A stretch of 64,000 nt of DNA from Rhodobiaceae bacterium. Lineage in GTDB: Bacteria > Pseudomonadota > Alphaproteobacteria > Rhizobiales > NORP267. This document shows positions 12,729-39,594 of this stretch, one piece after another. The notes beneath the pieces were generated by a model. That model worked only from the letters and a program-made list of their open reading frames with translations. It was not told the origin of the DNA and made no database searches. The stretch lies in assembly GCA_020441905.1 (NCBI GenBank), contig JAGRLG010000029.1:16922-80921 (forward strand), written 5' to 3'. Every line of letters begins with the position of its first letter. The stretch's first letter is position 1. The position numbers were made by a program, and so were the translations under genes.

Positions 12729-14038
12729 GATACCGCCGCGCCCAGCCGCTGGACGGAAACTTCGCGCATGGCGATATTCGCCAGCCCATAGGAGATATGC
12801 GCCGTCGATACCGTCAGGACAAAGGGTTTGGGCGCCCGCGCCACCAGCGCGTCCCCGTCCCCGCCCTGCTCCAGCAGCAACGCCTCGACGACATAGTCGT
12901 TGGAGGGCAGGAACGGCAGGGTGAAGACGAACCGCGCATCGCGCTCTTCGCCGGCCGCCATTGCCGCCGGCGCTTCGTCGCCGCCGGGCGTACGGTCGCC
13001 AAACAGCACTTGCGCGAACTTGTCGCGCACCAGGAAACACACTGAGGGCCGCGTCAGCGCCCGCGCGGCGCGGCAGGTGATACGGATTTCCACCTCCTGG
13101 CCGCCATGGGCCGGCGCCATCGGCCGCCCCTGGCCATCGACCACCTTTATGGCGGCAATCTCGCCGCCGCCGGACGGCGCCGCGAAACCGTCCGGATCGA
13201 AGCGGCCCGGCGCCGGCGCCAGCAGGTCGGCGCGGCGCAGGCAGCCGTCCACCGGGCCCTCGTCGTCATCGATGCCGCCAATGGAGAAGCTGTCGCCGTC
13301 ACCCGCCAGTTTCGACATCGCGGCATGATAGAGACGGCAGACGCGGGGCGTGCGCCCCTCGGCCTCGATGCGGCCCTGGTCGAGCCAGATCGCCCGGTTG
13401 CACAGCGCCCGCACCGCCGAATCGTCGTGGGAAACGAACAGCAGCGTACCGCCGCGTTCGCAAAAGCGGCGCAGATAGCGCAGGCACTTCTGCTGGAACG
13501 CCATGTCGCCGACGGCGAGGATCTCGTCCACCACCAGAATGTCGGTGTCGACATGGATGGCCACCGAGAAGGCCAGGCGGGCGAACATGCCGGAGGAATA
13601 TTCGCGGATCGGCTGGTCGATGAAGCTGCCGATGCCGGCAAAAGCCTCGATGGCCGCCATGCGCTCTTCGAATTGATGGTCCGAAAGCCCAAGAATGGTG
13701 GCGGCGAAACGGGCATTCTCGCGCCCCGTGAAATCAGGATGAAATCCCGCGCCCAGTTCCAGCAGGGCCGCCACCCGCCCGTGAACCTGAACGCTGCCGC
13801 AACTTGCCGCCAGGGTGCCGCAGATCAATTGCAGCAGGGTCGATTTTCCCGAGCCGTTGCGCCCGACGATACCGACCGCTTCGCCGCGCCGGATTTCTAT
13901 ATCGACGTCGCGCAGTGCCCATTTCGGCTCGCCGCGCCGGGTGCCGAAGAACAGGTCGGCGACGCGGTCCGCCTCGTTCTCGTAGCGGCCATAGGCCTTG
14001 CCGAGGCCGCGCGTCGATATGAGGACGTCAGACGACAT
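12725..14038 (-). CDS. Polysaccharide/glycolipid ABC exporter ATP-binding protein, Wzt-like paralog 1, with C-terminal substrate-binding-type domain
   Basis: Walker A 'GRNGSGKSTLLQ', 'YSSGMFARLAF', 'ILVVDEILAVGD'. Its C-terminal domain of about 190 aa is clearly diverged from that of paralog 2. The ATG at 14038 overlaps the end of wzm; the track ORF starts at TTG 14044. Confidence 0.85.
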   Translation of the reverse strand: MSSDVLISTRGLGKAYGRYENEADRVADLFFGTRRGEPKWALRDVDIEIRRGEAVGIVGRNGSGKSTLLQLICGTLAASCGSVQVHGRVAALLELGAGFHPDFTGRENARFAATILGLSDHQFEERMAAIEAFAGIGSFIDQPIREYSSGMFARLAFSVAIHVDTDILVVDEILAVGDMAFQQKCLRYLRRFCERGGTLLFVSHDDSAVRALCNRAIWLDQGRIEAEGRTPRVCRLYHAAMSKLAGDGDSFSIGGIDDDEGPVDGCLRRADLLAPAPGRFDPDGFAAPSGGGEIAAIKVVDGQGRPMAPAHGGQEVEIRITCRAARALTRPSVCFLVRDKFAQVLFGDRTPGGDEAPAAMAAGEERDARFVFTLPFLPSNDYVVEALLLEQGGDGDALVARAPKPFVLTVSTAHISYGLANIAMREVSVQRLGAAVS

Positions 14039-14894
14039 CGGCAAATCCGGGCCTCAGGCGCATGAAGATGCCATGGCCGGCAGCCGCCCACAGCCATCCC
14101 GCCGCCAGATAGACCGCCATCCCGGCAAGGCCCGGCCAGTCGCCGAAAAACAGCGCGTTGCGCATCGACTCCAGGGGAAAGGTCAGCGGGTTGAACATCA
14201 GCACGGCGCGAAGCCCTTCCGGCACCGCCGACAGCGGATAGAACACCGGGCTCAGGAACATGAACAGCATCGTCACCAGCCCGATGAGATGGGCGATGTC
14301 GCGGATGAACACGGAAACCGCGCTGAGGATCCAGGCAAAGCCGAGGGTGAACAGGGCAAGGCCGAAAAACAGCACCGGATAGGTGATGACCGCCAGCGGC
14401 GGCAGGCCGACGATCGGCAGGTAGAAGACGGCAAGAATGGCAAGCCCGATGCCGAAACGGAAAATCGCCGATCCGACGATGGCGAAAGCGAAGATCTCGA
14501 CAGGAAAGAAGATCTTCTTGATGAAGGCCTGGTTTTCGCGCATCAGCGTCGGCGCCCGCGCTACCGAGTCGAAGAAGAAGTTGAAGACGATCAGCCCGGA
14601 AAAATAGATCACCGGAAACAGGAATGGCTCGTCGGTGCGGTCCTGCCAGCGCGAATTGAGAATGACGCCGAAGACAAAGGTATAGATGGCGAGCATGAAG
14701 AGCGGCGCGATCACCGCCCACACCTTGCCCAGCACGGTGCCGCGAAACCGCGATTCGATGTCGCGCTGCACGAGCCGGCGGATGAGGTCGTGATTGCGCA
14801 TCGCGATCGTGTAGGGCGCCGCGACAAAACCCAGCAGGCTGAATTCGCGGCGCGGCGGCACGATTGCACGCGATTCACTGGTCGATTTGTTCAA
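14028..14894 (-). CDS. ABC-2 type exporter permease (Wzm/KpsM/TagG family)
   Basis: 288 aa. 'LVQRDIESRFRGTVLGKVWAVIAPLFML' is the ABC-2 N-terminal signature, followed by six hydrophobic helices. The TTG start at 14894 overlaps the AOS stop by 20 nt; an alternative ATG lies at 14801. Confidence 0.85.
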   Translation of the reverse strand: MNKSTSESRAIVPPRREFSLLGFVAAPYTIAMRNHDLIRRLVQRDIESRFRGTVLGKVWAVIAPLFMLAIYTFVFGVILNSRWQDRTDEPFLFPVIYFSGLIVFNFFFDSVARAPTLMRENQAFIKKIFFPVEIFAFAIVGSAIFRFGIGLAILAVFYLPIVGLPPLAVITYPVLFFGLALFTLGFAWILSAVSVFIRDIAHLIGLVTMLFMFLSPVFYPLSAVPEGLRAVLMFNPLTFPLESMRNALFFGDWPGLAGMAVYLAAGWLWAAAGHGIFMRLRPGFADVV

Positions 14895-16225
14895 GGCAGT
14901 TCCCGATGGCGTTGATGGTGCGGCGAATATCGTCTTCGCTATGGGTGCTGGAGATGAAGAACCGGAGCCGGGCCTTGTTTTCCGGCACCGCCGGATAGCC
15001 GATCGGCAGCGCCAGGAAGCCTTGTCCCAGCAGGGCTTTCGACAGGCGCACCGCCCGGTCCGTGGCCCCGGTCATGATCGGGATGACGGCACTGTCGCGG
15101 CTGGCCCCGGTATCTAGGCCCCGCGCCTTGGCCAGATCCAGGAACAGGCGCGCCCGCGCCTTGAGGCACGCCACCCGCTGCGGCTCCGCTTCCAGCACGC
15201 CAAGGGCGGCCAGCGCCGCCGCCGTGTCCGGCGGCGAAAGCCCGACCGAGTAGACGAAACCGGGGGCGGTCCGCTTCAGATAGGCCACCACCTCGCGCGT
15301 GCCGGCGATATAGCCGCCGCAACTGGCCAGTGCCTTGCTCAAGGTGCCCATCCACAGATCGACATCGCTTCCCGCGACGCCGTGATATTCGCCTATTCCG
15401 CGCCCCGTGCCGCCCAGCACGCCGATCGAATGGGCTTCGTCGACCAACACCAGGGCGTTGTGCCGGCGCTTGATTTCGACCAGGCGCGGCAGGTCGGGAA
15501 TATCGCCGTCCATCGAATAGACACCCTCGACCGCGATCAACGCCTGACGATACGCGCCGCGGCGGCGGGCAAGGATATTCTCCAGCGCCGCCAGGTTGTT
15601 ATGGGGGAACGGCAGCACCGTGGCGCCGGAAAGCTTCGCCCCCTGCTGGATGCTGGCATGGATCAGCGAGTCATAGACGATCAGGTCTTCAGGGCCGAGC
15701 AGATGGCCGATGGCGTTCTCGTTGGTCGAAAAGCCGCCGACAAAGACAACCGCGTCCTCGGCGCCGACCAGCGCCGCGAGCCGGCCTTCAAGCTGGCGAT
15801 GGATCGGCCGCTCGCCCGAGACCAGGCGCGAGGCCGAAACCGAGGTGCCGTAGCGCTCGATGGCCGCGCTGGCCGCGCGCGAAACCTCGTCATGGCCCGA
15901 CAGGCCGAGATAATTGTAGCTGCAGAAATTGACCAGCTCGCGCCCCGACACCATGGCCCGGCTGGCATTCACCCCCTCGCAGAGCTGAAAGAACAGATCG
16001 GCGGCGCCGCCGTCGTCGCTATCCTCGAAGGCGCGGGCGAACCCGGCATATTCGGCCGGAAAGACGAAACCGCCGCGCCCCGCCGCGCGCGCCTCCGCGC
16101 CCGCCGCCAAGGCCGCCCCGGCATTGGGCGCCGCCCCGGCACTGGGCGCCGCCTTTTCGCGCAGCATCTCCTCCAGCAGGGCCCTTTTCTGCGCCGCAGA
16201 CAGGGCCGCGATCCTGTCCGCCCCC

Positions 16226-16233
<8 letters not shown>
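14875..16233 (-). CDS. Alpha-oxoamine synthase (PLP-dependent acyl-(ACP/CoA) : amino acid C-acyltransferase, SPT/BioF/KBL family)
   Basis: 452 aa from ATG 16233. 'VDEAHSIGVLGGTGRGIGE' and the PLP-lysine motif 'GTLSKALASCGGYIAG' are present. There is an N-terminal extension of about 90 aa with the helix 'LSAAQKRALLEEMLREK'. The start overlaps the PKS stop by 8 nt. Confidence 0.85.
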
Positions 16234-23995
<7,762 letters not shown>

Positions 23996-24119: not shown

Positions 24120-25331
24120 TCACTTCGCCAGCAGTTGGCGATAGGTCAGCAGGTGCCGAGCCGTAACCTCGGGCCATGACAGGCCGGGCACGGCGGCGCG
24201 GCATCCTTCGGCGAGCCGGCGCCGCAAGTCCGGCTCGCGGCCATAGCGCGCCAGGGCGGCGGCGAAGGCCCGGTCGCCGTCCGCCAGCAGGCAATCCGCG
24301 CCCTCGGTGAGAAAGTCGCGCAACCCCGCCTCGCGCATGCCCAGAACCGGCACCCCGGCGCAGCGCGCCTCCAGCGCCGCGATGCCGAAGGATTCCAGCC
24401 GCGAGGGCAATAGGAAAAGGTCGGCGCGGGAGAGGGCGGCGCGGATTTCCTCGCGCCCGAGCCGGCCGAGGAACTCTGCGTCCGGTCCAAGGCCAAGCCT
24501 GCCCGCCTGTCTTTCCAGCGCGGCGCGCAGCGGCCCCTCGCCGATGATGCGCAGGCGCAGCCTCTGGCCCTGCGGCAGTTCCCGGCGGGCCTGGGCCACG
24601 GCTCGCAGCAGGGCCTGGGGCCGCTTGCGCGGATGAAGACGCATCACTGCCAGCAGCTCGATCGCCCCTTCTCCGCCGGCCCCGGCCCCGCCGGCATCGT
24701 TGCCCGCCCGCATGGCCCGCGCCGCGCCCCACCAGTCGGCATCGATGCCGTTGGGCAGGATTTCGACCGGTGCCGCGCCCAGCAGAGGGCGCAGCGAGCG
24801 GGCAACGACGCTGCTCACGGCGCTGTGGCGCACCGGCCAGCGGGCGCAGCCGAGCATCCGCCCCAGCGCCGCCGCCAGCGGAATCTGGACATGGCCGATC
24901 ATGGAGTGGAAGGTCGTCAGCACCGGCAGCCCCAGCCGCACCGCTTCGCGCGTCGCCGCATAGGCGAGCGGCGCATTGCCGAAGTGAACATGGACCAGAT
25001 CATAGCGGCCGGCGCGCAACTGCTCGCGCAGGCGCGCGTGAGCCGATTTCCGGTGCGGGCTGGCGAAGCACTCGAGAAAGAAGAAGAGATCGCGCGCGCT
25101 GTTGGCGTGCGGCGGCGGCGGGAAGCGGTAGCCGCCATCGGCGCGCCCCGCCGCGCACAGCCGCCGCACCACCACCCCTTCCACCTCGCCGGGGCCGGGC
25201 ACCGGCGTCAGCACTTCAAGATCCACGCCTTCCGCTTTGAGGTGCACGGTCAGGTCGCGCAGATGCAGCTCGATGCCGCCAAAGCGGGGCAGGTACCAGT
25301 CCGATACCAGGGCAACGCGCGGCGCCGTCAT
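24120..25331 (-). CDS. Glycosyltransferase family 4 (GT-B; PimB/MshA-like N-terminus)
   Basis: 403 aa. N-terminus 'VALVSDWYLPRFGGIELHLRDL' and C-terminus 'LLPSRLESFGIAALEARCAGVPVLGMREAG' (EX7E region). It ends 124 nt upstream of the PKS start. Confidence 0.8.
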   Translation of the reverse strand: MTAPRVALVSDWYLPRFGGIELHLRDLTVHLKAEGVDLEVLTPVPGPGEVEGVVVRRLCAAGRADGGYRFPPPPHANSARDLFFFLECFASPHRKSAHARLREQLRAGRYDLVHVHFGNAPLAYAATREAVRLGLPVLTTFHSMIGHVQIPLAAALGRMLGCARWPVRHSAVSSVVARSLRPLLGAAPVEILPNGIDADWWGAARAMRAGNDAGGAGAGGEGAIELLAVMRLHPRKRPQALLRAVAQARRELPQGQRLRLRIIGEGPLRAALERQAGRLGLGPDAEFLGRLGREEIRAALSRADLFLLPSRLESFGIAALEARCAGVPVLGMREAGLRDFLTEGADCLLADGDRAFAAALARYGREPDLRRRLAEGCRAAVPGLSWPEVTARHLLTYRQLLAK

Positions 25332-25361
25332 CGCCGCGCCGCCCGCCGCCCGGCGCGGGCG

Positions 25362-26333
25362 CTACCACCAGTCGGCAAAGGCATGGATCGCCACCCGGTC
25401 ATTATGGCCCGAAGCGTTGAGGCCGAAGGTCAGCGCCGCCAGCCTGGAGGTGTGCCGCGGGATCGGCAGGCCCGGCGCCGGCACCACCAGCCGCGGCACC
25501 TTGCGCCGCGCCAGATGCGCCGCCACCCACACATCGTCCACCCAGCGCACCTCGTCCGGCCAGCCGGCGTAATCATGCACCCCCTTGTCCAGCGCGCCGG
25601 GCGGGATCAGGTAGCCCCAGACGCCGAGCAGGATGTCGACCTCGGTGGGCTGCGCCACCGCGCTGCCCCAGACATGCTCGAAATGGCGCGGATCGACGCC
25701 CGGCTCCAGGCGCCAGCCGCGCCAGCCCAGGGCAGCCGCCGGAAAGCTGCGATGCGCCTCGACCAGGGTTTGCAGGAAGTCGTGCGGGTAGATCATGTCG
25801 TCATCGACCGCCACCACCAGCGCCTCCGGTTCGGCGAGAAGCGCCGGCAGCAGCTTGGTCGAGGGGCCGGTGTCGACGCAGCGCAGGATGTCGATGCCCT
25901 TGGGCAGGTCCGCCGGCAGCGCATAGGGCTTGCCGCTGCGCAGCGACTTTTCCGGCAGCGCCAAAATGATGCGGTCGGCGGCGCGGGTCTGTTCCCTGAG
26001 GCTGAGCAGGGTTGGAACCAGGGTGTCGATGCGCTCCGGGATCGTGGTCATCGAGACCACCAGGCGCTCGCCGCCGCGCCCGGCCTGGGGCAGCGCCAGG
26101 GAACGCCCCGCGCGCAGCCGCGCCGCGCGGCGATAATCGGCGGCGATGCGCAGGGCCGACAGCCGCCGGAAGCGGATAAACTGGCTGCGGATCTTGCGCC
26201 AGGCGATATCCCGCCGCGTCAATGCCCGGACTGCACCGCTATCCGCCGTCACGCCGCCTGGCCCCGCCCGCCGATCCCCACCCGCCGATTCATGTCGCCG
26301 ATCCCTCTGGTAAGAGGGCGCAAATGTGGACAA
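25362..26333 (-). CDS. Putative GT-A-fold glycosyltransferase (DDD motif)
   Basis: 323 aa. 'VVSMTTIPERIDTLVPTLLSLREQT' followed by 'VVAVDDDMIYPHDFL' looks like a nucleotide-sugar binding fold plus a DxD motif. A basic amphipathic N-terminus is present. Family assignment is tentative. Confidence 0.5.
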   Translation of the reverse strand: MSTFAPSYQRDRRHESAGGDRRAGPGGVTADSGAVRALTRRDIAWRKIRSQFIRFRRLSALRIAADYRRAARLRAGRSLALPQAGRGGERLVVSMTTIPERIDTLVPTLLSLREQTRAADRIILALPEKSLRSGKPYALPADLPKGIDILRCVDTGPSTKLLPALLAEPEALVVAVDDDMIYPHDFLQTLVEAHRSFPAAALGWRGWRLEPGVDPRHFEHVWGSAVAQPTEVDILLGVWGYLIPPGALDKGVHDYAGWPDEVRWVDDVWVAAHLARRKVPRLVVPAPGLPIPRHTSRLAALTFGLNASGHNDRVAIHAFADWW

Positions 26334-26405: not shown

Positions 26406-27020
26406 ATGGCCGACCTAGCCGGGCCGGAAACCTTGCGCAACCTCTACCGCCGCCTTCTCGACTCGGCGTCGCGCACCCTTGCCGCCGCCGGCATCCACCC
26501 CGACTGGCTGACCATGGCCTCGCTGCCACCGGCGGTCCTTGCCGGCATCGCCGCCGCCTTCGGCTCGTTCACGATCGCCGCCGTCCTGTTCGCCATCAGC
26601 GGCATCCTCGACCTGCTCGACGGCGCGCTGGCCCGCCACACCGGCCGCGCCACCCGTTTCGGCGCGCTGCTCGATTCAACTCTCGACCGCCTTGCCGATG
26701 CTGCCGTGCCCGCCGGCCTCGTCGTCTTTTATGCGCCGCATGGTGCGCTGGCCGCCCTTCCCGTGCTGACCATCATCGCCGGCTTCCTGATTTCCTATAT
26801 CCGCGCCCGCGCCGAAGGCCTCGACATCGCCCTGCCCCGGCTGTGGATGCGCCGCGAGGACCGTTTCCTGGCGATGACCGCCGGCTTGCTTCTGGCCCCG
26901 CTCGCCGCACCGGCCCTCGGCGTTCCGGCGCCCGTGCTGCTCGCGGTGATGGCCGCCCTTGCCGGACTGGGGTTTGTCGCCGCCTTCCAGGCCCTGCGCG
27001 CCGCGGCGAAGCGCAGCTGA
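26406..27020 (+). CDS. CDP-alcohol phosphatidyltransferase (candidate phosphatidylinositol-phosphate synthase)
   Basis: Signature D-x2-D-G-x2-A-R-x8-G-x3-D-x3-D is readable as 'DLLDGALARHTGRATRFGALLDSTLDRLAD'. About 204 aa with multiple TM helices. An alternative ATG lies at 26358. MIPS and PgpA are its neighbours. Confidence 0.8.
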   Translation: MADLAGPETLRNLYRRLLDSASRTLAAAGIHPDWLTMASLPPAVLAGIAAAFGSFTIAAVLFAISGILDLLDGALARHTGRATRFGALLDSTLDRLADAAVPAGLVVFYAPHGALAALPVLTIIAGFLISYIRARAEGLDIALPRLWMRREDRFLAMTAGLLLAPLAAPALGVPAPVLLAVMAALAGLGFVAAFQALRAAAKRS

Positions 27021-27029: not shown

Positions 27030-27557
27030 CTAGAAAGCCAGCGCCGCTAGATGCAGCGCGGCTATGGCATAGAGCGCCGCCAGGCCGTCATCCAGCATGA
27101 CGCCAAGGCCGCCGCCGACCCTGCGGTCGGCCAGCGAAACCGGCCATGGCTTGAGAATATCGAAGGCGCGAAAGAAGACGAAGGCCAGCGCCGATGCGCC
27201 AAGGCCCGGCAGGGCCGGCGGCGCCAGCACCACCACCAGCGCCATGCCGAAGATCTCGTCGATGACAATGGCGCCGTGGTCATGCACCCCCAGCGCCGCG
27301 CCGGCGCGCGACGCCGCCGCCACGCCGATGGCAAAGACCAGTGCCAGGGCGGGCAATGCCGCGGCCAGCGGCAATTGCGCCAGCGCCAGACCGAGCGCGA
27401 GGCCCGGCAGCGAACCGGCCGTTCCCGGCGCCAGCGGGCTGAGGCCGGTGCCGAGGCCGAGAGCGAGGAAATGCCACGGGCTGTCGATGAGGAAGCGCCA
27501 GCCGGGGCGCGCGCCCAAGATGGCTGCCTTTTCAGCGGGCGGGGAAACGGGTTTCAC
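27030..27557 (-). CDS. pgpA: Phosphatidylglycerophosphatase A family protein (candidate PIP phosphatase)
   Basis: 175 aa. 'WHFLALGLGTGLSPLAPGTAGSL' and 'IVIDEIFGM', 'FRAFDILKPWP' are the PgpA signatures. The GTG start lies 6 nt after the MIPS stop. Confidence 0.8.
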   Translation of the reverse strand: MKPVSPPAEKAAILGARPGWRFLIDSPWHFLALGLGTGLSPLAPGTAGSLPGLALGLALAQLPLAAALPALALVFAIGVAAASRAGAALGVHDHGAIVIDEIFGMALVVVLAPPALPGLGASALAFVFFRAFDILKPWPVSLADRRVGGGLGVMLDDGLAALYAIAALHLAALAF

Positions 27558-28646: not shown

Positions 28647-28825
28647 CGAAAGCCCCCATCGCAAGCAGTTTCAGGCTCAAAAGCCCATAGCAGTCATCTT
28701 CGCCAAGTTCCAGTGGCAGCGGCGCCGATGCCGCGGAAAGACCCCTTGCCGGCAACGGCGATCATTGTCTTGGCGCCGGATTGCCGCTAGGCCTTTTGCG
28801 ATCAGGAAGGAAACGAGCCAGCACC

Positions 28826-29884
28826 ATGCGCGCGCCCGCACCGATGCCCGATTGCCCTCGCCCGCCCGCCGCGCGCGCGCGCGCCGATGCCGGATGGCGC
28901 CGCGTTCCGCTGCGCCGGCTTCTCCTCGTCCTTGTCGCCATGGCCATCATTGCCGCCCTGCCCTTCGTGGACTGGGCAGGGCTGGGTATGGCGCTCGCCG
29001 CCGCCGATCCCTATTGGCTGGCCATGGCCGTCATTGCCAATCTTGCCGTTTTCCCGCTCTGGGTCTGGCAATGGCGGCTCCTGGCGCTGCCGGGGCGTGA
29101 CGTCGGCTGGCCGGTCATGGCCGAGATTGTCGCCCTGACGGCTGCCGCCAAGACCACCCTGTCCTCGATCGGCGGCGGCGCCTCGGCGGTGGCCCTACTG
29201 GTGGCGCGCGGCGAACTGACACTGATCGGCGCCACCTCATTGCTCGCCATGGACCAGCTTCTGGTCGGCATTGCCAAGCTGGCCGTCCTCGCCCTGGCGC
29301 TCTCCATTGCCCCGCTCCCCGCCCCCGTCTTCACCGCGGCGCTGGTCTTCGCCGCGCTGGTGGCCGCGTTGCTGGCCGCCCTCACCGTCCTTGCCTTCGG
29401 CCCGGCGCGGCTCGCCGGCATTGTGGCGCGCCGGCGCAGGCTTGGCGCCTGGCTTGGCAACATGCTGGGTCATGTTTCCGTCGGGCTTGCCACCATGCGC
29501 AGTCCGCAACGCGCCGCCCTGACCCTGGCGCTCGCGCTGGTCAAAAAATTCACCGAGGTCGCCGCCGCCCTTGCCATCCAGCTTGCCTGCGGCATCGCGC
29601 CTTCGCCCGCCGCCGCCATCCTGTCGGTGGCCGCCGTGAGCCTGACGACGGCGATACCGGTCATTCCCGGCAATATCGGCACCTATGCCGCCACCGTGTT
29701 TCTGGTCTACGAAGGCCTCGGCATCCCCGCCGCGCCGGCGCTGGCCGCCGGCCTGCTTCAGCACGGCGCCATGCTCATCCCCTCGCTCGCCATCGGCTAT
29801 GGCGCCGTGGCATTGTCGCGCCTTGGCGCAGGCGGCGCGGCGGCCGGCGAGGCGGCGCAAGAAACGGAGCAGGATCCGGCATGA
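28826..29884 (+). CDS. UPF0104 / lysyl-PG-synthase-TM-region family membrane protein (flippase-like)
   Basis: About 352 aa and polytopic. N-terminus 'RRLLLVLVAMAIIAALPFVDW..L..AL...DP.WLA.AV..NL' with 8 or more hydrophobic helices, typical of the MprF flippase-domain family. Its stop overlaps the lptB-like start (ATGA). Confidence 0.6.
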   Translation: MRAPAPMPDCPRPPAARARADAGWRRVPLRRLLLVLVAMAIIAALPFVDWAGLGMALAAADPYWLAMAVIANLAVFPLWVWQWRLLALPGRDVGWPVMAEIVALTAAAKTTLSSIGGGASAVALLVARGELTLIGATSLLAMDQLLVGIAKLAVLALALSIAPLPAPVFTAALVFAALVAALLAALTVLAFGPARLAGIVARRRRLGAWLGNMLGHVSVGLATMRSPQRAALTLALALVKKFTEVAAALAIQLACGIAPSPAAAILSVAAVSLTTAIPVIPGNIGTYAATVFLVYEGLGIPAAPALAAGLLQHGAMLIPSLAIGYGAVALSRLGAGGAAAGEAAQETEQDPA

Positions 29885-30663
29885 CCGCATCAGGGGCACC
29901 AGACGCGAAAATGCTCCAGGCCTCGGGCCTGGCCAAGGCCTATGGCGGCGGCGATGTCGTGGTCGATTTCAGCCTTCGCGTCGCGCGCGGCGAAACCGTC
30001 GCCCTGCTTGGCCCCAACGGCGCCGGCAAGACCACCGTTTTCAGCATGATAACCGGCGTCACGCGCCCCGATGCCGGCGCGGTGCGCATCGACGGCATCG
30101 ATGTCACCAAGATGCCGGTCTATGCCCGCGCCCGCCTCGGCCTCAGCTATCTGCCGCAGGAAACCTCGGTTTTCCGCGGCCTGTCGGTGGAGGACAATAT
30201 CCTGCTCTATCTCGAAAGCATCGAGCCGGATCGCCGCCGCCGCGCCCGCCGCCTGGAAGAACTGCTGGCCGAGGTCGGCCTCGCCGACATGCGCCGCCAG
30301 AGGGCCTCGCGCCTGTCCGGCGGCCAGCGGCGGCGCTGCGAAATCGCCCGCGCCCTCGCCGCCGACCCGCGCTACATCCTGCTTGACGAGCCTTTCGCCG
30401 GCATCGACCCTCTAGCCGTGAGCCACGTCCAGGCCACCATCCGCGACCTCAGCGCGCGCGGCCTCGGCGTTCTTGTCAGCGATCACAATGTGCGCGAGAC
30501 GCTGGCCATCGTCGACCGCGCCTATGTCATCGAATCGGGATACCTGCTGGCCCATGGCACGCCGGGCGAGATCATCGGCGACGAACAGGTGCGCCGCCTC
30601 TATCTCGGCAGCACCTTCGCCGCGCCGCCTTCGGGGGCCGCGCCGCCCGGCCCCACGGCCTGA
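29881..30663 (+). CDS. lptB: LptB-family ABC ATPase (paralog embedded in the lipid island)
   Basis: 'LLGPNGAGKTT.F.MI.G', 'LGLSYLPQE.S.FR.LSVEDN', 'LSGGQRRRCEIARALA..P.YILLDEPFAGIDP' and 'DHNVRETL' are LptB hallmarks. 260 aa. Confidence 0.8.
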   Translation: MTASGAPDAKMLQASGLAKAYGGGDVVVDFSLRVARGETVALLGPNGAGKTTVFSMITGVTRPDAGAVRIDGIDVTKMPVYARARLGLSYLPQETSVFRGLSVEDNILLYLESIEPDRRRRARRLEELLAEVGLADMRRQRASRLSGGQRRRCEIARALAADPRYILLDEPFAGIDPLAVSHVQATIRDLSARGLGVLVSDHNVRETLAIVDRAYVIESGYLLAHGTPGEIIGDEQVRRLYLGSTFAAPPSGAAPPGPTA

Positions 30664-30781
30664 ACGCGGTCCCGACGGGAACGAAACAGGGGAAACAGCC
30701 ATCGCCTCCTTCCAGACACTGCATGCCGGCGCGGCGCGCCGTCACCCTCCCGCCGGCATCCCGCGGCGGCCGGGGCGTGCC

Positions 30782-31945
30782 GTGCCGGGGCGCTATGTCG
30801 GCGGCCTCATCCGCGACATCGCCCGCATCACGCTTGGTGTCCTGGCCGGCATCGAGGCGATCTATCTTTCCGACAAGGTGATCACCCACCTCCTGCCGAC
30901 CACCCTCCAGAACCAGGCCGGATTTGCCGATCTGGCGCTGCTGGTGCTCTACGCGACGCCGGAAATCCTATTCATCGGCTTTCCGGTGGCGCTGCTGATC
31001 GCGGTCTATCTGGTTCTGCTGCGCCGCCGCGAGGCCAATGAGTTCGTCGTCTTCGCCGGTGTCGGCTACGGCACCGGCGCGCTGCTCGCCCTGGTCCTGG
31101 TCATCGGCCTCGCCGGCCAGGCGCTTTCCCTGGCTGCCACCGGCTATATCGAACCCCACGCCCTGCACCTGTTCGGCAAGACGGCGTTCGAAACCCGCTA
31201 CAAGGCGCTGCGTGAAGGCCGCCTCGCCGCCGGCAAGTTCTATGTCTTCGACAAATATGCCGTCTTCGCCCCCTATCGGCGCGGCAATGACGTGGTCGAC
31301 AACCTGTTCATCCATGCCCGCCTCGACGCCAACCGCTACCGCATCATGATCGCGGACCGCGCCACCTTGTTCGGCTCGCCGGAAATCCGCAATCTGGGGC
31401 TGATATTCGAGAATGCGTCGGTCCATGAATTCCACGAGAACCGCACCCTGGACCCCGGCCCAGCCGAATGTCAGAAATGCCGCAACGCCCGTCCGGCGGC
31501 CCCCTTCAACGTTCTCAGGATCAATCACCTCTACGGCGAGCTGCCCGCCGGCGACGGGCAGGAATTCGGCCCGCGCGGCCAGCGCCCGGCGGAACTGACC
31601 AGCCTCGAACTGCTGACCGGGCAAGACACCGGCGGCGGCGCCACGCGGGAAATGTCGGCTCGCGCCGTGCGCGCCCTCACCTGCCTGCTGGCGCCCCTTA
31701 TCGCCCTGCTGGCAGTGGCGCTGACCAGCCAGGCCACCATGTTCATTGCCCTGCCCGCCGCCTGCGCGCTGATCCTCGGCACCGGATTTTTCGGCGGCCA
31801 GGCCGCCGGCCTGCTGCCCCCCGCCGGCATGGCGGCCAATCTTGGCGCGGTGCTGGTGCTGGGGCTTGCCGCCGCCGCGGCCCTCATTTGGGCCGTGCTG
31901 CGCGTCCAGAACGGCTGCGTGCGCCCGCACGGGGTGCGGCTATGA
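30782..31945 (+). CDS. lptF: LptF-like (YjgP/YjgQ family) permease
   Basis: The in-frame GTG at 30782 gives 'MPGRYVGGLIRDIARITLGVLAG...', the family-typical N-terminal RY motif. This is followed by 3 TM helices, a periplasmic domain of about 170 aa and 3 C-terminal TM helices. Its stop overlaps the next start (ATGA). Confidence 0.7.
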   Translation: MPGRYVGGLIRDIARITLGVLAGIEAIYLSDKVITHLLPTTLQNQAGFADLALLVLYATPEILFIGFPVALLIAVYLVLLRRREANEFVVFAGVGYGTGALLALVLVIGLAGQALSLAATGYIEPHALHLFGKTAFETRYKALREGRLAAGKFYVFDKYAVFAPYRRGNDVVDNLFIHARLDANRYRIMIADRATLFGSPEIRNLGLIFENASVHEFHENRTLDPGPAECQKCRNARPAAPFNVLRINHLYGELPAGDGQEFGPRGQRPAELTSLELLTGQDTGGGATREMSARAVRALTCLLAPLIALLAVALTSQATMFIALPAACALILGTGFFGGQAAGLLPPAGMAANLGAVLVLGLAAAAALIWAVLRVQNGCVRPHGVRL

Positions 31946-33120
31946 CCGCGCCGCTGGCCCCGTTCGGCCGCGAGACCCGCTATGTTTCCCGGCTCTATCT
32001 GCAAAGGGTCTTCGTCGTCGCCGCCGCGACCATGGCGATCGTGCTCGCGCTCGACCTTGCCTCGAACATGACCTGGTTGTTGTCGGACCGCGCCGCAGCA
32101 TCGGGGCGGGACGGCTTTGCGCGCCTAGCCTATTATCTCGGCCTGCGCGCCGCCTACAACACGCCGGCCATCCTGCCCATCGCCGCCGTGGTCGGTGTCG
32201 TCTGGGCGGAGTTCGCCCTTGCCGCTTCCTACGAGCGCCTCATGATCTTCAATTCCGGGCGCTCGCCCCTGCGCTCGCTGGTTCCGGCGATCCTGGTCGG
32301 CCTCCTGCTCGGCTCGGCCCAGTTCGCCGCGCTGAGCTATGCCCAGCCCTTTGCCGTGGCGGCGCAGGCGCGATCCAATTTCCGCGATTACGGCCCGAGC
32401 TTCCACCCCGACAGCGTCACCGGGCGCAAATGGATCGCCATCGAGGACGCGCTGGTCAACGCCCGCATCGAATTCGGGCATCCGGTGACCCTGCGCGACA
32501 TGATCGTCTATGGCCTCGACCGCGACGGCCAACTCGAAATCGTCGTCAGCGCCGAACGAGCCGTTCCCGCCGCCGAACCCGGCATGTGGGCGCTTAGCTC
32601 TGGCTCATGGTGGGGCCGCCCCGCCTCGCCGGCACAGGGCGGCGCCGGCGCCGGCGGTGGCGCCGAGGCCGCTTTTGAAAACGCGGAGATCAAGCTGCCG
32701 CTGGATCCGCTCTGGGTCGCCAATTACGAGGTGCCGGCCCGATTCCTGCCGCAGAAGGTCATCCGCGCGCTGGGTTCCGGCGGCCCCGGAATTCCCGAGG
32801 CGTTCAGCTATCGCACCACCTATCAGACGCGGCTGGCCTCGCTGCTCTACCCCCTCGCCATGACCCTCCTCGGCGCCACCTTGTGCCTGCTCATGCTCGG
32901 CCCCAGGGTGCGGCCGATGGTATCGGTGAAGATCGGCCTCGCTGGCTATGGCGTGCACGTCGCTTCCAAGGTTCTGACCACCCTTGGCGAATATGGCTAT
33001 GTCACGCCCGTCGTGGCGGCCTGGGCGCTGCCGGTCGCCGTCGCCGGCGGCGCGCTGCTGGTGCTGGCCCGCCGCGAGCGCAAGGTTCGCCGCTCGCTCG
33101 CCCGCCAGGCGGCAGGCTAG
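31942..33120 (+). CDS. lptG: LptG-like (YjgP/YjgQ family) permease
   Basis: 'RYVSRLYLQRVFVVAAATMAIVLALDL', with the same 3 TM / periplasmic domain / 3 TM topology as its partner. 392 aa. Confidence 0.75.
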   Translation: MTAPLAPFGRETRYVSRLYLQRVFVVAAATMAIVLALDLASNMTWLLSDRAAASGRDGFARLAYYLGLRAAYNTPAILPIAAVVGVVWAEFALAASYERLMIFNSGRSPLRSLVPAILVGLLLGSAQFAALSYAQPFAVAAQARSNFRDYGPSFHPDSVTGRKWIAIEDALVNARIEFGHPVTLRDMIVYGLDRDGQLEIVVSAERAVPAAEPGMWALSSGSWWGRPASPAQGGAGAGGGAEAAFENAEIKLPLDPLWVANYEVPARFLPQKVIRALGSGGPGIPEAFSYRTTYQTRLASLLYPLAMTLLGATLCLLMLGPRVRPMVSVKIGLAGYGVHVASKVLTTLGEYGYVTPVVAAWALPVAVAGGALLVLARRERKVRRSLARQAAG

Positions 33121-33943: not shown

Positions 33944-33948
33944 GCCCG

Positions 33949-35170: not shown

Positions 35171-35491
35171 TCACCCGCCCGACGTCGGCGCCGCCGGCTC
35201 GCTCTGCATCGAGGCGACGATGACGCTGATCAACTCGGACAGGTTGCGCGCCTCGGAAAGATCGGAACTCATGGGAATGTAGGTGTCGAATTCCTCTTCC
35301 AGGCCCATCAGCACCATCACGACCTCGATCGATTCAAGGCCCAGCGTTTGCAGCGTCGCCTCGGGCGCGATCTTGTCCCGCTCGACCTTTCCCTCTTCGA
35401 CGATCACCTTGATGATCCGCTCGATCATGTCCGGATCGTCGAGTTGCGGCCATGTCGTCGGCGCCGGGCCGCGTGTGTCCTCATCCGTCAT
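35171..35491 (-). CDS. Dedicated acyl carrier protein
   Basis: 106 aa from ATG 35491 (GGGAG SD). Phosphopantetheine site 'LQTLGLESIEVVMVLMGLEEEF'. It is longer than AcpP, with N- and C-terminal extensions. Confidence 0.8.
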   Translation of the reverse strand: MTDEDTRGPAPTTWPQLDDPDMIERIIKVIVEEGKVERDKIAPEATLQTLGLESIEVVMVLMGLEEEFDTYIPMSSDLSEARNLSELISVIVASMQSEPAAPTSGG

Positions 35492-36671
35492 TGTCGTCTC
35501 CCTCGCCTGCCGCGGCATCAGCTTCCAGCACCTTGTCATAGAGGCGCAGGGTGCGCACGCGCTTGAAGTTGAATTGCTCCAGTATTTTCAGCAATGCCTG
35601 ATTGTTTTCCAGCACCCAGCCCGCTTCCAGCCAGTCGGTTTCATAGTGGGCGCTGCGGGCGATCATCTCGTCGATCATGGTCATGGCGATGGCGGCGCCG
35701 CCGACGCTGTGGCGCAGGTCGAAAACCACGCCGAGCAGGATGATGCGCCCGGTGCGGAACCTGTGGGTGAACATGCGATAGCCGAGCTTGAGCCAGCCCA
35801 GCGGCGAGGGATCGGCGCCAAGATCGCCGGTGGCCTCGAACAGGTTGGGCAGCACCAAGGCGACGCCGACCGGGCGGCCCGCCATTTCGACGATGACACC
35901 GGCATCGGCGGGAACGAAGGGCTTCAGGTCCTTCGAAATGCCCTCCAGATCCTCTTTTTGCAGCGGCACGAAGCCCCAGTTGTCCTGCCAGGCGTCGTTA
36001 TAGACCGCGCGCATGATTTCGACGTCGCGGGCCAGGTTCTTCAGATCGAGCGCGCGCACGACCAGGTCGGGGCGCCGGCGCTGCAGCGCCAGGCGGACGC
36101 GCCGCGCTTCCAGCTCTGCCTGGGCGCTGTCGAGGCGCCAGTAATGCAGGTCGCGCATCTTGGCATAGCCGCAGGCCTCGACATGGCCCTCCAGATAGGC
36201 CGGGTGCCAGGGCACCATGATCAGCGCCGGTTCCTCGCGCCCTTCGACCAGCAGGCCCGCCTCCTCGTTCATCGACAGCAGGCAGGGTCCGAAAACGCGG
36301 CCGAAGCCGCGATCGGCGATCCAGTCCTCGGCGGTTTCGATCAGCGCCCGCACCACCTCCAGCTCGTCAATGGCATCGAGGCAGCCGAACATGCCGGCGC
36401 CCTCCAGGGCGTCGCCGGGGCCGCTGGCGCGGATCTGGGCGTGGTCGATCTGCGCCGAAATGCGCCCCACCGCGGCGCCATCCTTGCGGGCGATCCAGTA
36501 TTGCGCCTCGCCATGCTTGAAGAACGGCGCCTTGGCGGGATCGAGCAGGCCCCGGCGCTCCATGGTCATCGGCGCGGTGTAGCCGGCAAGGCCGCGGTAG
36601 AGCCGGGGCGGCAGGGCGATGAACTCCTTCACCGCCGCCTTGCTGTCGGCGCGTTCGATGGTCACCCTCAT
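35481..36671 (-). CDS. Large GNAT-fold acyltransferase (~396 aa; candidate N-acyltransferase)
   Basis: The in-frame ATG at 36671 overlaps the PAP2 stop (ATGA). 'MRVTIERADSKAAVKEFIALPPRLY...' has a two-lobed GNAT-like organisation, with the acyl-CoA/ACP-binding-type segment 'RIILLGVVFDLRHSVGGAAIAMTMIDEMI'. The track ORF 35481..37544 is an in-frame fusion artefact with the antisense of the PAP2 gene. Confidence 0.55.
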   Translation of the reverse strand: MRVTIERADSKAAVKEFIALPPRLYRGLAGYTAPMTMERRGLLDPAKAPFFKHGEAQYWIARKDGAAVGRISAQIDHAQIRASGPGDALEGAGMFGCLDAIDELEVVRALIETAEDWIADRGFGRVFGPCLLSMNEEAGLLVEGREEPALIMVPWHPAYLEGHVEACGYAKMRDLHYWRLDSAQAELEARRVRLALQRRRPDLVVRALDLKNLARDVEIMRAVYNDAWQDNWGFVPLQKEDLEGISKDLKPFVPADAGVIVEMAGRPVGVALVLPNLFEATGDLGADPSPLGWLKLGYRMFTHRFRTGRIILLGVVFDLRHSVGGAAIAMTMIDEMIARSAHYETDWLEAGWVLENNQALLKILEQFNFKRVRTLRLYDKVLEADAAAGEGDDNDG

Positions 36672-38759: not shown

Positions 38760-38835
38760 CTAGTGTCCTTATTGAATCCGAAGTTCGTTCCGAGCCTGCC
38801 GCACAGTGCGACGAACTTCGGATTCAGGACACTAG
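38760..38835. repeat. Palindromic intergenic element, copy B (inverted orientation, diverged)
   Basis: CTAGTGTCCTTATTGAATCCGAAGTTCGT...loop...ACGAACTTCGGATTCAGGACACTAG. The loop contains GAGCCTGCCGCA, the reverse complement of the copy A loop core. The last 4 nt overlap the stop of the DUF4833-like gene. Confidence 0.8.
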
Positions 38836-39440: not shown

Positions 39441-39594
39441 GACGATGGAACTCCCTGGAGACCCCCTTAAACGCGCTTGCGCCAATTGGTTTTGCAGCGT
39501 TTTGCGCTTGTCTACACCACGCCGGGCGCGCTTGACCACCCATGCGGCAATGGAGCCCACTGGAGCGCCCGTCCGATTTCACTAATATCGCGCC

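What the first reader, a model, noticed from the sequence alone, without database searches (positions are those of the whole stretch)
24120..26333. Two glycosyltransferases head the PKS operon, and ManC closes the island: a mannosylated product is likely
A GT-A-like protein (DDD motif, basic amphipathic N-terminus) and a GT4 protein sit directly upstream of the PKS on the same strand, with gaps of 30 and 124 nt. The GT4 N-terminus 'SDWYLPRFGGIE' resembles actinobacterial PimB/MshA-type enzymes. A third GT4 (10132-11418) converges on the exporter genes. A bifunctional GDP-mannose-forming ManC (41303-42715) ends the island. Combined with the inositol module, this resembles PIM or mannosyl-IPC logic (inositol-phospholipid + GDP-mannose), which would be unusual in a Gram-negative envelope.
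Basis: inference. Interest (0 to 1): 0.55.

Follow-up and report, generated by a model that had tools for sequence, protein, structure and literature searches.

The report
Two glycosyltransferases decorating an inositol lipid
Two real sugar-adding enzymes sit in a conserved alphaproteobacterial gene island that makes an inositol-containing, sphingolipid-like membrane lipid, and they probably attach sugars to its inositol headgroup, but nothing supports the claim that the sugar is mannose or that the nearby ManC gene belongs to the island.

Summary
The genes are real. 24120-25331(-) is a GT4 enzyme of the PimA/BshA/MshA/PimB' clade. 25362-26222/26333(-) has no Pfam or NCBIfam hit, but it is a confidently modelled GT-A enzyme related to the GT45 alpha-GlcNAc transferases KfiA and PmHS2.

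The window comes from a Rhodobiaceae MAG. Both GTs belong to an island found in about 25 alphaproteobacterial species. The island holds inositol-phosphate synthase, PIP synthase, a PgpA-like phosphatase, an IPC-synthase-like PAP2_3, an Spt-like oxoamine synthase (with or without a PKS), a GNAT-like protein, an SDR, a UPF0104 flippase-like protein and LptB/F/G-like genes.

In relatives the GT4 usually lies directly beside the flippase-like gene. A NodB-type deacetylase is present in 21 loci. This matches the published GT + deacetylase + flippase modules GpgSDF and HexSDF, and it points to an N-acetylhexosamine for at least one GT.

ManC is a genuine bifunctional gene, but it is monocistronic and absent from all 93 related loci, including the syntenic sister genomes. 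The idea of a glycosylated inositol lipid is supported. Mannose and "ManC closes the island" are not. No paper describing this system was found.

The parts
25362..26333 (-). GT-A-fold glycosyltransferase, GT45-like (KfiA/PmHS2-like). The likely true start is the TTG at 26222 (286 aa). The N-terminus is a basic amphipathic helix pair. Invariant DDD and DD motifs.
   Evidence: No Pfam or NCBIfam hit. AF2 pLDDT 93.5. Foldseek best match KfiA 5z8b, E 7e-11. Family profile against PDB: PmHS2 5.5e-10, KfiA 1.3e-5. Invariant residues. No TM segment.
24120..25331 (-). GT4 (GT-B, retaining-type) glycosyltransferase of the PimA/BshA/MshA/PimB' clade. EX7E motif at E313-E321; G18-G19 loop.
   Evidence: Pfam. 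Every NCBIfam hit is far below its cutoff. PDB single-sequence and profile searches. Invariant residues. No TM segment.
16226..23995 (-). Single-module type I PKS (KS-AT-DH-MT-ER-KR-ACP), 124 nt downstream of the GT4 on the same strand.
   Evidence: Pfam. The same gene order is seen in L001.
14875..16398 (-). Alpha-oxoamine synthase (Spt/BioF-like). The N-terminal ~70 codons of the ORF overlap the PKS 3' end and are probably not translated.
   Evidence: Pfam Aminotran_1_2 at 5e-52. BioF, Kbl and Spt models all score below cutoff. The orthologue in L001 is 434 aa.
14028..14894 (-). Wzm-type ABC-2 permease.
   Evidence: Pfam. Conserved after the oxoamine synthase gene in L001.
11421..14044 (-). 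Two tandem Wzt-type ABC ATPases, each with a Wzt_C carbohydrate-binding domain (ORFs 12725-14044 and 11421-13040).
   Evidence: Pfam. The same tandem is seen in L012 and L089.
10051..11418 (+). Third glycosyltransferase. Only the C-terminal Glycos_transf_1 domain is recognisable. Convergent on the Wzt genes and travels with the Wzm/Wzt module in relatives.
   Evidence: Pfam 6e-17. Weak C-terminal hit to MshA. 34% identical to the gene that follows Wzm-Wzt-Wzt in L089. Not related to the operon GT4.
26430..27020 (+). CDP-alcohol phosphatidyltransferase, phosphatidylinositol-phosphate synthase-like. Divergent from the GT operon.
   Evidence: Motif read in the translation. NCBIfam PIPSynth 105 bits and archaetidylinositol-P synthase 121 bits, both below cutoff.
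27030..27557 (-). PgpA-family phosphatase (candidate PIP phosphatase, like BT_1525).
   Evidence: Pfam PgpA at 2e-37. Role of BT_1525 taken from PMC9246714.
27564..28664 (-). myo-Inositol-3-phosphate synthase.
   Evidence: Pfam. TIGR03450 at 523.7 bits, cutoff 638.
28781..29884 (+). LPG_synthase_TM / UPF0104 flippase-like membrane protein (GpgF/HexF/BT_1521-like).
   Evidence: Pfam 1.5e-22. TIGR00374 flippase-like domain. Directly beside the GT4 in 19 related loci.
29881..33120 (+). LptB (passes its equivalog cutoff) followed by divergent LptF-like and LptG-like permeases (ORFs 30473-31945 and 31468-33120; their true starts are probably later).
   Evidence: Pfam. NCBIfam: LptB 317.9 bits against cutoff 240; LptF 79.7 against 230; LptG 68.5 against 240. 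Conserved inside the island in several families.
35481..36680 (-). Conserved ~380-aa protein with no Pfam hit of its own. Some homologues carry a GNAT (PF00583) hit. Candidate N-acyltransferase (bacterial ceramide synthase-like).
   Evidence: GC3 frame analysis. No Pfam or NCBIfam hit. Homologues. Syntenic beside PAP2_3.
36668..37573 (-). PAP2_3 protein, phosphoinositol-dihydroceramide (IPC) synthase-like.
   Evidence: Pfam 5.7e-19. NF052609 at 127.6 bits, cutoff 480. Used as the anchor for 80 related loci.
37777..38640 (+). Short-chain dehydrogenase (candidate 3-keto reductase of the sphingoid pathway).
   Evidence: Pfam. Syntenic in relatives.
38832..39560 (-). DUF4833 protein. Last gene of the island that is conserved in relatives.
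   Evidence: Pfam 1.8e-29. Present in L001, L005, L008, L009 and L018.
41303..42715 (-). Bifunctional ManC (mannose-1-phosphate guanylyltransferase / mannose-6-phosphate isomerase). A neighbour of the island, not a conserved member.
   Evidence: TIGR01479 at 604.8 bits, above cutoff. No homologue in any of the 93 other loci. The sister genome has RND efflux and PhaC genes at that position.

Best explanation
The two genes encode soluble or peripheral glycosyltransferases that work at the cytoplasmic face of the inner membrane. They are part of a conserved alphaproteobacterial island for an inositol-phosphate-headed, sphingolipid-like lipid.

Proposed pathway (inferred step by step):
1. MIPS, PIP synthase and the PgpA-like phosphatase make phosphatidylinositol.
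2. The PKS, oxoamine synthase, GNAT-like protein and SDR make a ceramide-like lipid.
3. The PAP2_3 enzyme transfers inositol phosphate onto that lipid.
4. The GT4 (PimA/PIG-A/MshA-like) glycosylates the inositol headgroup.
5. The GT45-like GT-A adds a second sugar, most probably an alpha-linked N-acetylhexosamine from a UDP-sugar.
6. The UPF0104 flippase-like protein, possibly with Wzm/Wzt, moves the glycolipid across the inner membrane.
7. The island's own LptB/F/G-like transporter may extract it towards the outer membrane.

Most relatives also carry a NodB-type deacetylase that would turn HexNAc into a cationic HexN. This genome lacks one within about 84 kb. ManC is an unlinked neighbour.

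Shown: gene identities, folds and synteny. Inferred: acceptor, donors, order of steps and export route.
For: - GT identities.
- Neither GT has a TM segment, and the GT-A N-terminus is basic and amphipathic.
- Island synteny holds across Rhodobiaceae, Devosiaceae, Rhodobacteraceae, Stellaceae, Phreatobacter, Beijerinckiaceae and Hyphomicrobiales.
- In Stellaceae the GT4 overlaps the PAP2_3 gene by 4 nt.
- The GT4 lies less than 250 bp from the UPF0104 gene in 19 non-redundant loci. A NodB deacetylase is present in 21 loci and is always accompanied by a GT4 hit (partial in L038).
- GT-A -> NodB -> UPF0104 form a co-directional run with gaps of 30-92 nt in at least 8 loci.
- Myxococcota loci carry PAP2_3 and PIPS without GTs, so the GTs are an add-on to an inositol-lipid core.
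- The Nocardia vaccinii GT-A homologue (51% identity) sits with a GT4, a PIG-L deacetylase and an acyltransferase. This is GPI-like logic in an organism that makes PI.
- Published precedents exist for GT + deacetylase + UPF0104 flippase modules: GpgSDF (PMC12713373) and HexSDF (PMC10128005).
- The Bacteroides inositol-lipid cluster includes an LPG-synthase-like neighbour (PMC9246714).
Against: - No biochemical or lipidomic data exist for any member.
- Most related loci were collected with PAP2_3 as the anchor, so the co-occurrence counts are biased.
- Among contexts found from the GT side, Gemmatirosa (GT4), L093 (GT4) and L089 (GT-A) show no inositol genes within 8-10 kb. In those organisms the acceptor could be another headgroup or a glycan.
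- The window has no deacetylase, so the HexNAc inference for this genome rests on orthology and on the GT45 homology.
- In L018 and L089 the GT-A sits next to Wzm/Wzt. It may therefore work on the exported glycan rather than on inositol itself.
- PimA (a GDP-mannose enzyme) is the single best PDB match of the GT4 profile.
Confidence: 0.55

Rival explanations
1. The GTs are GDP-mannose-dependent (PimA/PimB'-like) and build a mannosylated PI or IPC (PIM- or MIPC-like), with the adjacent ManC supplying GDP-mannose.
For: - The GT4 family profile matches PimA best, and also matches PimB'.
- ManC is a bona fide bifunctional enzyme 15 kb away.
- Two relatives (L005, L010) carry an MptA/B-family GT-C inside the island, which hints at polyprenyl-phosphate-mannose chemistry in some lineages.
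- This genome lacks the deacetylase seen in most relatives.
Against: - ManC is absent from all 93 related loci, including the syntenic sister genomes L008 and L009.
- ManC is monocistronic and convergent with a GMC gene that is itself not conserved.
- BshA and MshA (UDP-GlcNAc enzymes) score almost as well as PimA (133 and 122 bits against 138).
- The GT-A is homologous to GT45 GlcNAc transferases.
- Deacetylases co-occur with orthologues that are 37-54% identical.
- The window has no MptA/B homologue.
Confidence: 0.17
2. The GTs, the third GT4 and Wzm/Wzt form an ordinary ABC-transporter-dependent O-antigen or EPS pathway acting on an undecaprenyl-linked glycan (like the E. coli O9a polymannan). 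Their position next to the lipid genes is coincidental.
For: - One Wzm plus two Wzt proteins with Wzt_C glycan-binding domains.
- A GT converges on them, and ManC is nearby.
- GT-A homologues sit beside Wzm/Wzt in L018 and L089 without a GT4.
Against: - No initiating phosphoglycosyltransferase, ligase or chain terminator was found among the island ORFs scanned.
- Wzm/Wzt are co-transcribed with the PKS and oxoamine synthase genes here and in L001.
- The GT4 is tied to PAP2_3, PIPS and UPF0104 in genomes that lack Wzm/Wzt.
Confidence: 0.1
3. The GTs glycosylate something other than inositol. One option is the ceramide-like or PKS-derived amino alcohol itself (a glycosphingolipid, as in Sphingomonas or Caulobacter). 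The other is an anionic phospholipid such as PG (as GpgS does).
For: - Here the GTs share an operon with the PKS and oxoamine synthase.
- GpgS is also a GT4 working with a deacetylase and a UPF0104 flippase, on PG.
- The Gemmatirosa GT4 homologue has the deacetylase and flippase but no inositol or sphingolipid genes nearby.
Against: - GpgS model NF053787 scores only 32.9 bits against a cutoff of 480.
- In most relatives the GTs are separated from the PKS but stay beside PIPS, PAP2_3 and MIPS.
- The Nocardia homologues occur in a sphingolipid-free organism that makes PI.
- The closest solved relatives mostly use inositol acceptors.
Confidence: 0.15

Closest known systems
Actinobacterial PIM pathway (PimA, PimB'; GT4)
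   Same: GT4 enzymes acting at the cytoplasmic face. They are encoded in organisms that make PI through PIP synthase. PimA and PimB' are among the best solved matches of the GT4 family profile (E 3e-39 and 2e-30).
   Different: - No equivalog-level match.
- The donor is unknown.
- The host is an alphaproteobacterium with Lpt genes.
- The lipid anchor is probably ceramide-like.
- The partner is a GT45-like GT-A, not a second GT4.
- ManC is not conserved with the island.
GPI-anchor initiation (PIG-A GT4 + PIG-L deacetylase) and mycothiol MshA/MshB
   Same: The logic is a GT4 placing GlcNAc on inositol, followed by de-N-acetylation. Relatives pair the GT4 and GT-A with NodB-type or PIG-L deacetylases. 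19 of 28 family members give weak PIGA-domain hits.
   Different: - The window GT4 itself has no PIGA hit.
- MshA model TIGR03449 scores 78.6 bits against a cutoff of 462.5.
- The window contains no deacetylase.
- The deacetylase in most relatives is NodB-type, not PIG-L.
GpgSDF (P. aeruginosa GlcN-PG) and HexSDF (C. difficile aminoglycolipid)
   Same: A glycosyltransferase, a deacetylase and a UPF0104/MprF-like flippase form a module that makes a lipid with an amino-sugar head. The same trio is adjacent in most relatives.
   Different: - The acceptor here is probably an inositol-phosphate headgroup, not PG or a glycosyl-DAG.
- There are two GTs, one of them a GT-A.
- The GpgS model is not matched (32.9 bits against 480).
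- The deacetylase is missing in this genome.
GT45 alpha-N-acetylglucosaminyltransferases (KfiA; KfiA-like domain of PmHS2)
   Same: GT-A fold, the motifs 'T(T/S)IP.R' and 'DDD.IYP.D(F/Y)', and significant matches at both profile and structure level.
   Different: - About 20% identity.
- GT45 enzymes elongate a heparosan polymer.
- This subfamily has a basic amphipathic N-terminus and a lipid-island context.
- Its wider clade (more than 7,000 cluster representatives at E<=1e-10) is largely unannotated.
Fungal and plant MIPC/GIPC glycosylation, and the Bacteroides inositol-lipid cluster BT_1521-1526
   Same: Inositol-phosphoryl-ceramide made from PI by a PAP2-type synthase and then glycosylated on inositol. 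Homologues of BT_1521, 1522, 1523, 1525 and 1526 are all present.
   Different: - The Bacteroides cluster has no GTs, and no glycosylated product was reported (PMC9246714).
- The eukaryotic GTs belong to other families (own knowledge, not tested here).
- All NCBIfam equivalog cutoffs for the Bacteroides and mycobacterial enzymes are missed.

Membership tests
CAZy GT4 / GT-B retaining glycosyltransferases | N-terminal Glyco_transf_4 domain plus C-terminal Glycos_transf_1 domain | tested here: met
   Pfam 1.7e-19 and 2.3e-28 for 24120-25331.
CAZy GT4 / GT-B retaining glycosyltransferases | EX7E motif, basic R/K donor-phosphate ligands and N-terminal Gly-Gly loop | tested here: met
   E313 and E321, R231 and G18-G19 are invariant, and K236 is nearly invariant, in 28 homologues.
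PimA / PimB' (PI mannosyltransferases) | Orthologue-level sequence similarity | tested here: inconclusive
   Best PDB profile hits are PimA at 138.5 bits and PimB' at 109 bits, but BshA (133) and MshA (122) are equally close. The single-sequence E-values are only 1e-12 to 1e-14.
PimA / PimB' (PI mannosyltransferases) | GDP-mannose donor and PI or PIM acceptor | not testable with these tools
   Needs enzyme assays. The linked ManC is not conserved.
MshA (TIGR03449) | Score above the equivalog cutoff | tested here: not met
   78.6 bits against a cutoff of 462.5.
PIG-A / GPI-GlcNAc transferase | PIGA N-terminal domain (PF08288) | tested here: not met
   The window protein gives no hit at E<=1. 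19 of 28 relatives give weak hits, the best at 5.9e-6.
GpgS (NF053787) and the S-D-F aminoglycolipid module | Equivalog score for the synthase | tested here: not met
   32.9 bits against a cutoff of 480.
GpgS (NF053787) and the S-D-F aminoglycolipid module | GT, deacetylase and UPF0104 flippase encoded together | tested here: inconclusive
   The window has the GTs and the UPF0104 gene (3.4 kb apart) but no deacetylase. 21 related loci have all three.
GT45 (KfiA-type alpha-GlcNAc transferases) | GT-A fold closest to KfiA/PmHS2, with significant sequence-profile similarity | tested here: met
   Foldseek: KfiA at E 7e-11 and PmHS2 at 9e-9. hmmsearch: PmHS2 residues 300-498 at 5.5e-10 and KfiA at 1.3e-5.
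GT45 (KfiA-type alpha-GlcNAc transferases) | DxD metal/nucleotide-sugar motif | tested here: met
   'VDDDMIYPHDF' aligns with KfiA 'TDDDIIYPPDY'. The DDD is invariant.
GT45 (KfiA-type alpha-GlcNAc transferases) | UDP-GlcNAc donor and retaining mechanism | not testable with these tools
   Inferred only from homology and from deacetylase co-occurrence.
ManC (GMP/PMI, TIGR01479) | Equivalog score and two-domain architecture | tested here: met
   604.8 bits against a cutoff of 372.95, with NTP_transferase and MannoseP_isomer domains.
ABC-transporter-dependent O-antigen pathway | Wzm, and Wzt with a Wzt_C domain | tested here: met
   Pfam.
ABC-transporter-dependent O-antigen pathway | Initiating phosphoglycosyltransferase (WecA/WbaP type) and ligase in the locus | tested here: not met
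   No such domain was found in any ORF scanned between 10 and 43 kb. They could be encoded elsewhere in the genome.
Bacteroides-type inositol-lipid cluster (BT_1521-1526) | MIPS, PIP synthase, PgpA-like phosphatase, PAP2 PI-DHC synthase and an LPG-synthase-like neighbour, all present | tested here: met
   All five families are present. Every one scores below its NCBIfam equivalog cutoff, so they are homologues rather than equivalogs.

The most novel reading that the evidence does not exclude
Many Alphaproteobacteria (Rhodobiaceae, Phreatobacter, Devosiaceae, Stellaceae, some Rhodobacteraceae and Beijerinckiaceae) make a GPI/GIPC-like surface glycolipid that has not been described. It would be a HexN(Ac)-(Hex)-inositol-phospho-ceramide-like lipid. 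In some lineages its long-chain base would be primed by a type I PKS. The lipid would be glycosylated by a GT4 plus a GT45-like GT-A, flipped by a UPF0104 protein, and delivered to the outer membrane by a dedicated LptB/F/G-like (and Wzm/Wzt) machinery. That would amount to a second, LPS-independent glycolipid export route.
Probability: 0.3. Interest if true: 0.8.

Novelty: new variant of a known kind. Interest (0 to 1): 0.58.

Why it matters
Glycosylated inositol phospholipids (PIM/LAM, GPI, MIPC/GIPC) are hallmark surface lipids of actinobacteria and eukaryotes. No equivalent is established for Gram-negative bacteria.

This locus and about 25 related species carry a coherent gene set for such a lipid, joined to bacterial sphingolipid synthesis. 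The same island holds a flippase-like protein and Lpt-like genes. The Caulobacter sphingolipid literature states that no flippase or transporter for these lipids is yet known (PMC11087976). The island therefore supplies concrete candidates for that gap.

It also gives a biological context to a large, almost unannotated GT45-like clade of GT-A domains.

Tried and rejected
- Searching the PDB with only the first 58 residues of the GT4 (the 'SDWYLPRFGGIE' motif) found nothing relevant. The motif alone is not diagnostic.
- Pfam and NCBIfam gave no hit for the GT-A. Single-sequence PDB search gave only E~1 to KfiA. Family assignment needed the AF2 model and the family profile.
- tblastn for NodB, PIG-L, MptA/B and U557 homologues in the window found none. 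Inspecting 10 kb beyond each window end also found no deacetylase, ManB or Ppm1-like gene.
- I considered the third GT4 a paralogue of the operon GT4 and rejected this (BLASTP E 0.1).
- I considered the GT-A family very rare, because the word-indexed search returned only 44 hits. I rejected this after a full HMM search found 10,932 cluster representatives at E<=1e-3. Only the close subfamily is small.
- Seven literature searches found no paper describing this island or its GTs. Only open-access papers and bioRxiv were searched.
- Donor specificity of the GT4 could not be resolved from sequence, because PimA, BshA and MshA score alike.
- The promoter/terminator scan was uninformative beyond showing no terminator between the genes.


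Full report
**Origin and gene map.** The window is 64 kb at about 67% GC. It comes from a Rhodobiaceae MAG: the 286-aa product of 25362-26222(-) is identical to an NCBI protein of a 'Rhodobiaceae bacterium' on a 100-kb contig. ORF listing with GC3 frame analysis, Pfam and NCBIfam give the following map.
- 10051-11418(+): a glycosyltransferase with only a C-terminal Glycos_transf_1 domain.
- 11421-14044(-): two Wzt ATPases with Wzt_C domains.
- 14028-14894(-): Wzm.
- 14875-16398(-): an Spt/BioF-like oxoamine synthase.
- 16226-23995(-): a KS-AT-DH-MT-ER-KR-ACP PKS.
- 24120-25331(-): the GT4.
- 25362-26333(-): the protein with no Pfam hit.
- ~26430-27020(+): a PIP-synthase-like CDP-alcohol phosphatidyltransferase.
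- 27030-27557(-): a PgpA-like phosphatase.
- 27564-28664(-): MIPS.
- 28781-29884(+): an LPG_synthase_TM/UPF0104 flippase-like protein.
- 29881-33120(+): LptB and LptF/G-like genes.
- 33117-35539(-): MaoC-like, FabF-like and ACP genes.
- 35481-36680(-): a conserved 380-aa protein.
- 36668-37573(-): an IPC-synthase-like PAP2_3.
- 37777-38640(+): an SDR.
- 38832-39560(-): DUF4833.
- 39595-41064(+): a GMC oxidoreductase.
- 41303-42715(-): ManC.

Outside this block lie NAD biosynthesis and regulator genes on the left. On the right are a two-component system, TRAP and Liv transporters.

**Checking the observation.** The GT4 call is solid: both GT4 domains are present, and the EX7E motif, R/K pair and Gly-Gly loop are conserved in 28 homologues.

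The upstream protein is invisible to Pfam and NCBIfam. An alignment of 24 homologues shows invariant DDD and DD motifs. It yields an AlphaFold model with pLDDT 93.5. That model's best PDB matches are KfiA (E 7e-11, TM 0.67-0.72), the KfiA-like domain of PmHS2, then ppGalNAc-T2, SpsA and EXTL2. The family profile also hits PmHS2 residues 300-498 (5.5e-10) and KfiA (1.3e-5) by sequence. So it is a GT-A enzyme homologous to GT45 alpha-GlcNAc transferases.

Its N-terminus is strongly basic and amphipathic. Neither GT has a TM segment. The 30-nt and 124-nt gaps are correct, and no terminator-like site separates the genes. The likely start of the GT-A is 26222 rather than 26333. ManC passes its equivalog cutoff.

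**What the surroundings say.** I fetched contexts from the GT-A side and from the GT4 side. I also fetched 80 loci anchored on the PAP2_3 protein from one genome per GTDB species. I scored all of them by tblastn with the island proteins. Four results matter.

1. *Conserved island.* The whole island recurs with rearranged order in Rhodobiaceae, Devosiaceae, Rhodobacteraceae, Stellaceae, Phreatobacter, Beijerinckiaceae and other Hyphomicrobiales. Myxococcota (Sorangium, Polyangium) have only PAP2_3 with PIPS, with or without PgpA, and no GTs. The GTs are therefore an alphaproteobacterial add-on to an inositol-lipid core.

2. *GT4 partners.* The GT4 lies less than 250 bp from the UPF0104 flippase-like gene in 19 non-redundant loci. 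In Stellaceae it overlaps the PAP2_3 gene by 4 nt. A NodB-type deacetylase is present in 21 loci and always comes with a GT4 hit (only a partial one in L038).

3. *GT-A partners.* The GT-A is present in 22 loci. In at least 8 of them it heads a GT-A -> NodB -> UPF0104 run with gaps of 30-92 nt. It directly abuts the GT4 only in this window, in its two sister genomes, and in Nocardia vaccinii. In Nocardia the pair sits with a PIG-L deacetylase and an acyltransferase. In L018 and L089 the GT-A sits beside Wzm/Wzt instead.

4. *ManC.* ManC and the GMC gene have no homologue in any of the 93 other loci. In the sister genome the DNA beyond DUF4833 encodes RND efflux, PhaC and MaoC proteins.

**Mechanism.** The trio of GT, deacetylase and UPF0104 flippase is the architecture of two characterised systems. 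GpgSDF makes GlcN-PG through a GT4, a deacetylase and a predicted flippase (PMC12713373). HexSDF does the equivalent in C. difficile (PMC10128005). The Bacteroides inositol-lipid cluster also keeps an LPG-synthase-like neighbour (PMC9246714).

The GT4 family profile matches PimA (138 bits), BshA (133), MshA (122) and PimB' (109) over its full length. Three of these four use an inositol acceptor. 19 of 28 relatives give weak PIGA-domain hits.

The best reading is that the GT4 glycosylates the inositol of PI or of the IPC-like lipid. The GT45-like GT-A then adds a second sugar, probably a HexNAc. The product is flipped and exported.

The ceramide-like anchor is inferred from four genes: the oxoamine synthase, the GNAT-like 380-aa family (some homologues carry PF00583 hits; members occur in Novosphingobium), the SDR and the PAP2_3. 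All steps beyond gene identity are inference.

**The mannose claim.** GDP-mannose cannot be excluded for the GT4, because PimA is its top match. Two relatives carry an MptA/B-family GT-C. However, ManC is not conserved with the island and is not co-transcribed with it. The GT-A's homologues are GlcNAc transferases, and orthologous GTs travel with deacetylases. This genome lacks a deacetylase in the window and in 10 kb on each side. Its product may therefore stay N-acetylated, or it may use another sugar.

**Rivals.** An ordinary O-antigen or EPS pathway is supported by Wzm/Wzt and the third GT. It is weakened by the missing initiating transferase and by the GT4's fixed partnership with lipid genes. 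Direct glycosylation of ceramide or PG remains possible, because Gemmatirosa, L093 and L089 lack inositol genes nearby.

**Novelty.** No paper describing this island was found in seven searches of the held library. The GT4 is a new member of a known family. The GT-A belongs to a large, almost unannotated GT45-like clade: 10,932 cluster representatives at E<=1e-3 and 7,193 at E<=1e-10, with only sub-threshold GT2 hits. The system as a whole is a new variant of glycosyl-inositol-phospholipid biosynthesis in a Gram-negative lineage.

**Verdict.** The mannose and ManC part is not supported.

Noticed in passing
window 29881-33120 (+): An LptB gene (passes TIGR04406, 317.9 bits against cutoff 240) followed by LptF-like and LptG-like permeases that score far below their equivalog cutoffs (79.7/230 and 68.5/240). 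They sit in one operon with the UPF0104 flippase-like gene. The same set recurs inside the island in Rhodobiaceae, Devosiaceae, Rhodobacteraceae and (LptB at least) Phreatobacter. This may be a dedicated Lpt-like exporter for the island's lipid rather than the housekeeping LPS transporter.
   Followed up: partly
window 14875-23995 (-): A single-module fully reducing type I PKS with a C-methyltransferase domain (KS-AT-DH-MT-ER-KR-ACP), directly followed by an Spt/BioF-like oxoamine synthase. This looks like a PKS-primed sphingoid base. The same pair occurs in L001, L006/L007, L017 and (PKS) L005. Other relatives have the oxoamine synthase with a FabF-like KS and an ACP instead. L094 has a ligase-ACAD-ACP-oxoamine synthase fusion.
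   Followed up: partly
window 35481-36680 (-): A conserved ~380-aa protein with no Pfam or NCBIfam hit, always next to PAP2_3. It has more than 857 homologues, a few with GNAT (PF00583) hits, and occurs in Novosphingobium, Hoeflea, Devosia and Roseibium. It is a candidate bacterial ceramide synthase-type N-acyltransferase.
   Followed up: partly
window 33117-35539 (-): A FabF-like ketosynthase, an ACP, a MaoC-like dehydratase and an unassigned small ORF (33521-~33940) are inserted between the LptG-like gene and the GNAT-like gene. They are present in L011, L012, L013, L014 and L018 but absent from the sister Rhodobiaceae loci.
   Followed up: partly
window 11421-14044 (-): Two tandem Wzt ATPases, each with its own Wzt_C glycan-binding domain, serve one Wzm permease. 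The same Wzm-Wzt-Wzt-GT arrangement is found in L012 and L089.
   Followed up: partly
L002 2187-6089 (Nocardia vaccinii): A GT4, a GT45-like GT-A (51% identical to the window protein), a PIG-L family deacetylase and a PlsC-type acyltransferase are clustered in an actinobacterium. This looks like a GPI-like GlcN-(acyl)PI pathway distinct from the PIM genes.
   Followed up: partly
L005 13460-17165; L010: In two relatives the island carries an MptA/B-family GT-C (the family of lipomannan-type mannosyltransferases) and a 557-aa protein with no Pfam or NCBIfam hit. This suggests periplasmic extension of the glycolipid in some lineages.
   Followed up: no
window 38832-39560 (-): A DUF4833 protein with a hydrophobic N-terminal segment marks the conserved right end of the island (L001, L005, L008, L009, L018). 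Its function is unknown.
   Followed up: no
profile of alignment A1 (GT-A family): The GT45-like domain defines a very large clade: 10,932 50%-identity cluster representatives at E<=1e-3. Pfam barely recognises it. Many members are 500-1600-aa multidomain proteins fused to true GT2 or LicD domains, reminiscent of capsule or teichoic-acid polymerases.
   Followed up: partly
window 16226-16398: The longest ORF of the oxoamine synthase overlaps the 3' end of the PKS gene by 173 nt. The orthologue in L001 is 434 aa, so the real start is probably downstream, near the PKS stop codon.
   Followed up: no
window 3377-8319 (-): A nadA-nadB-nadC operon lies with an NrtR-type regulator and a YnfA-family gene left of the island. 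This is ordinary housekeeping context that marks the island's left boundary, together with an IclR regulator at 9065-9820.
   Followed up: no
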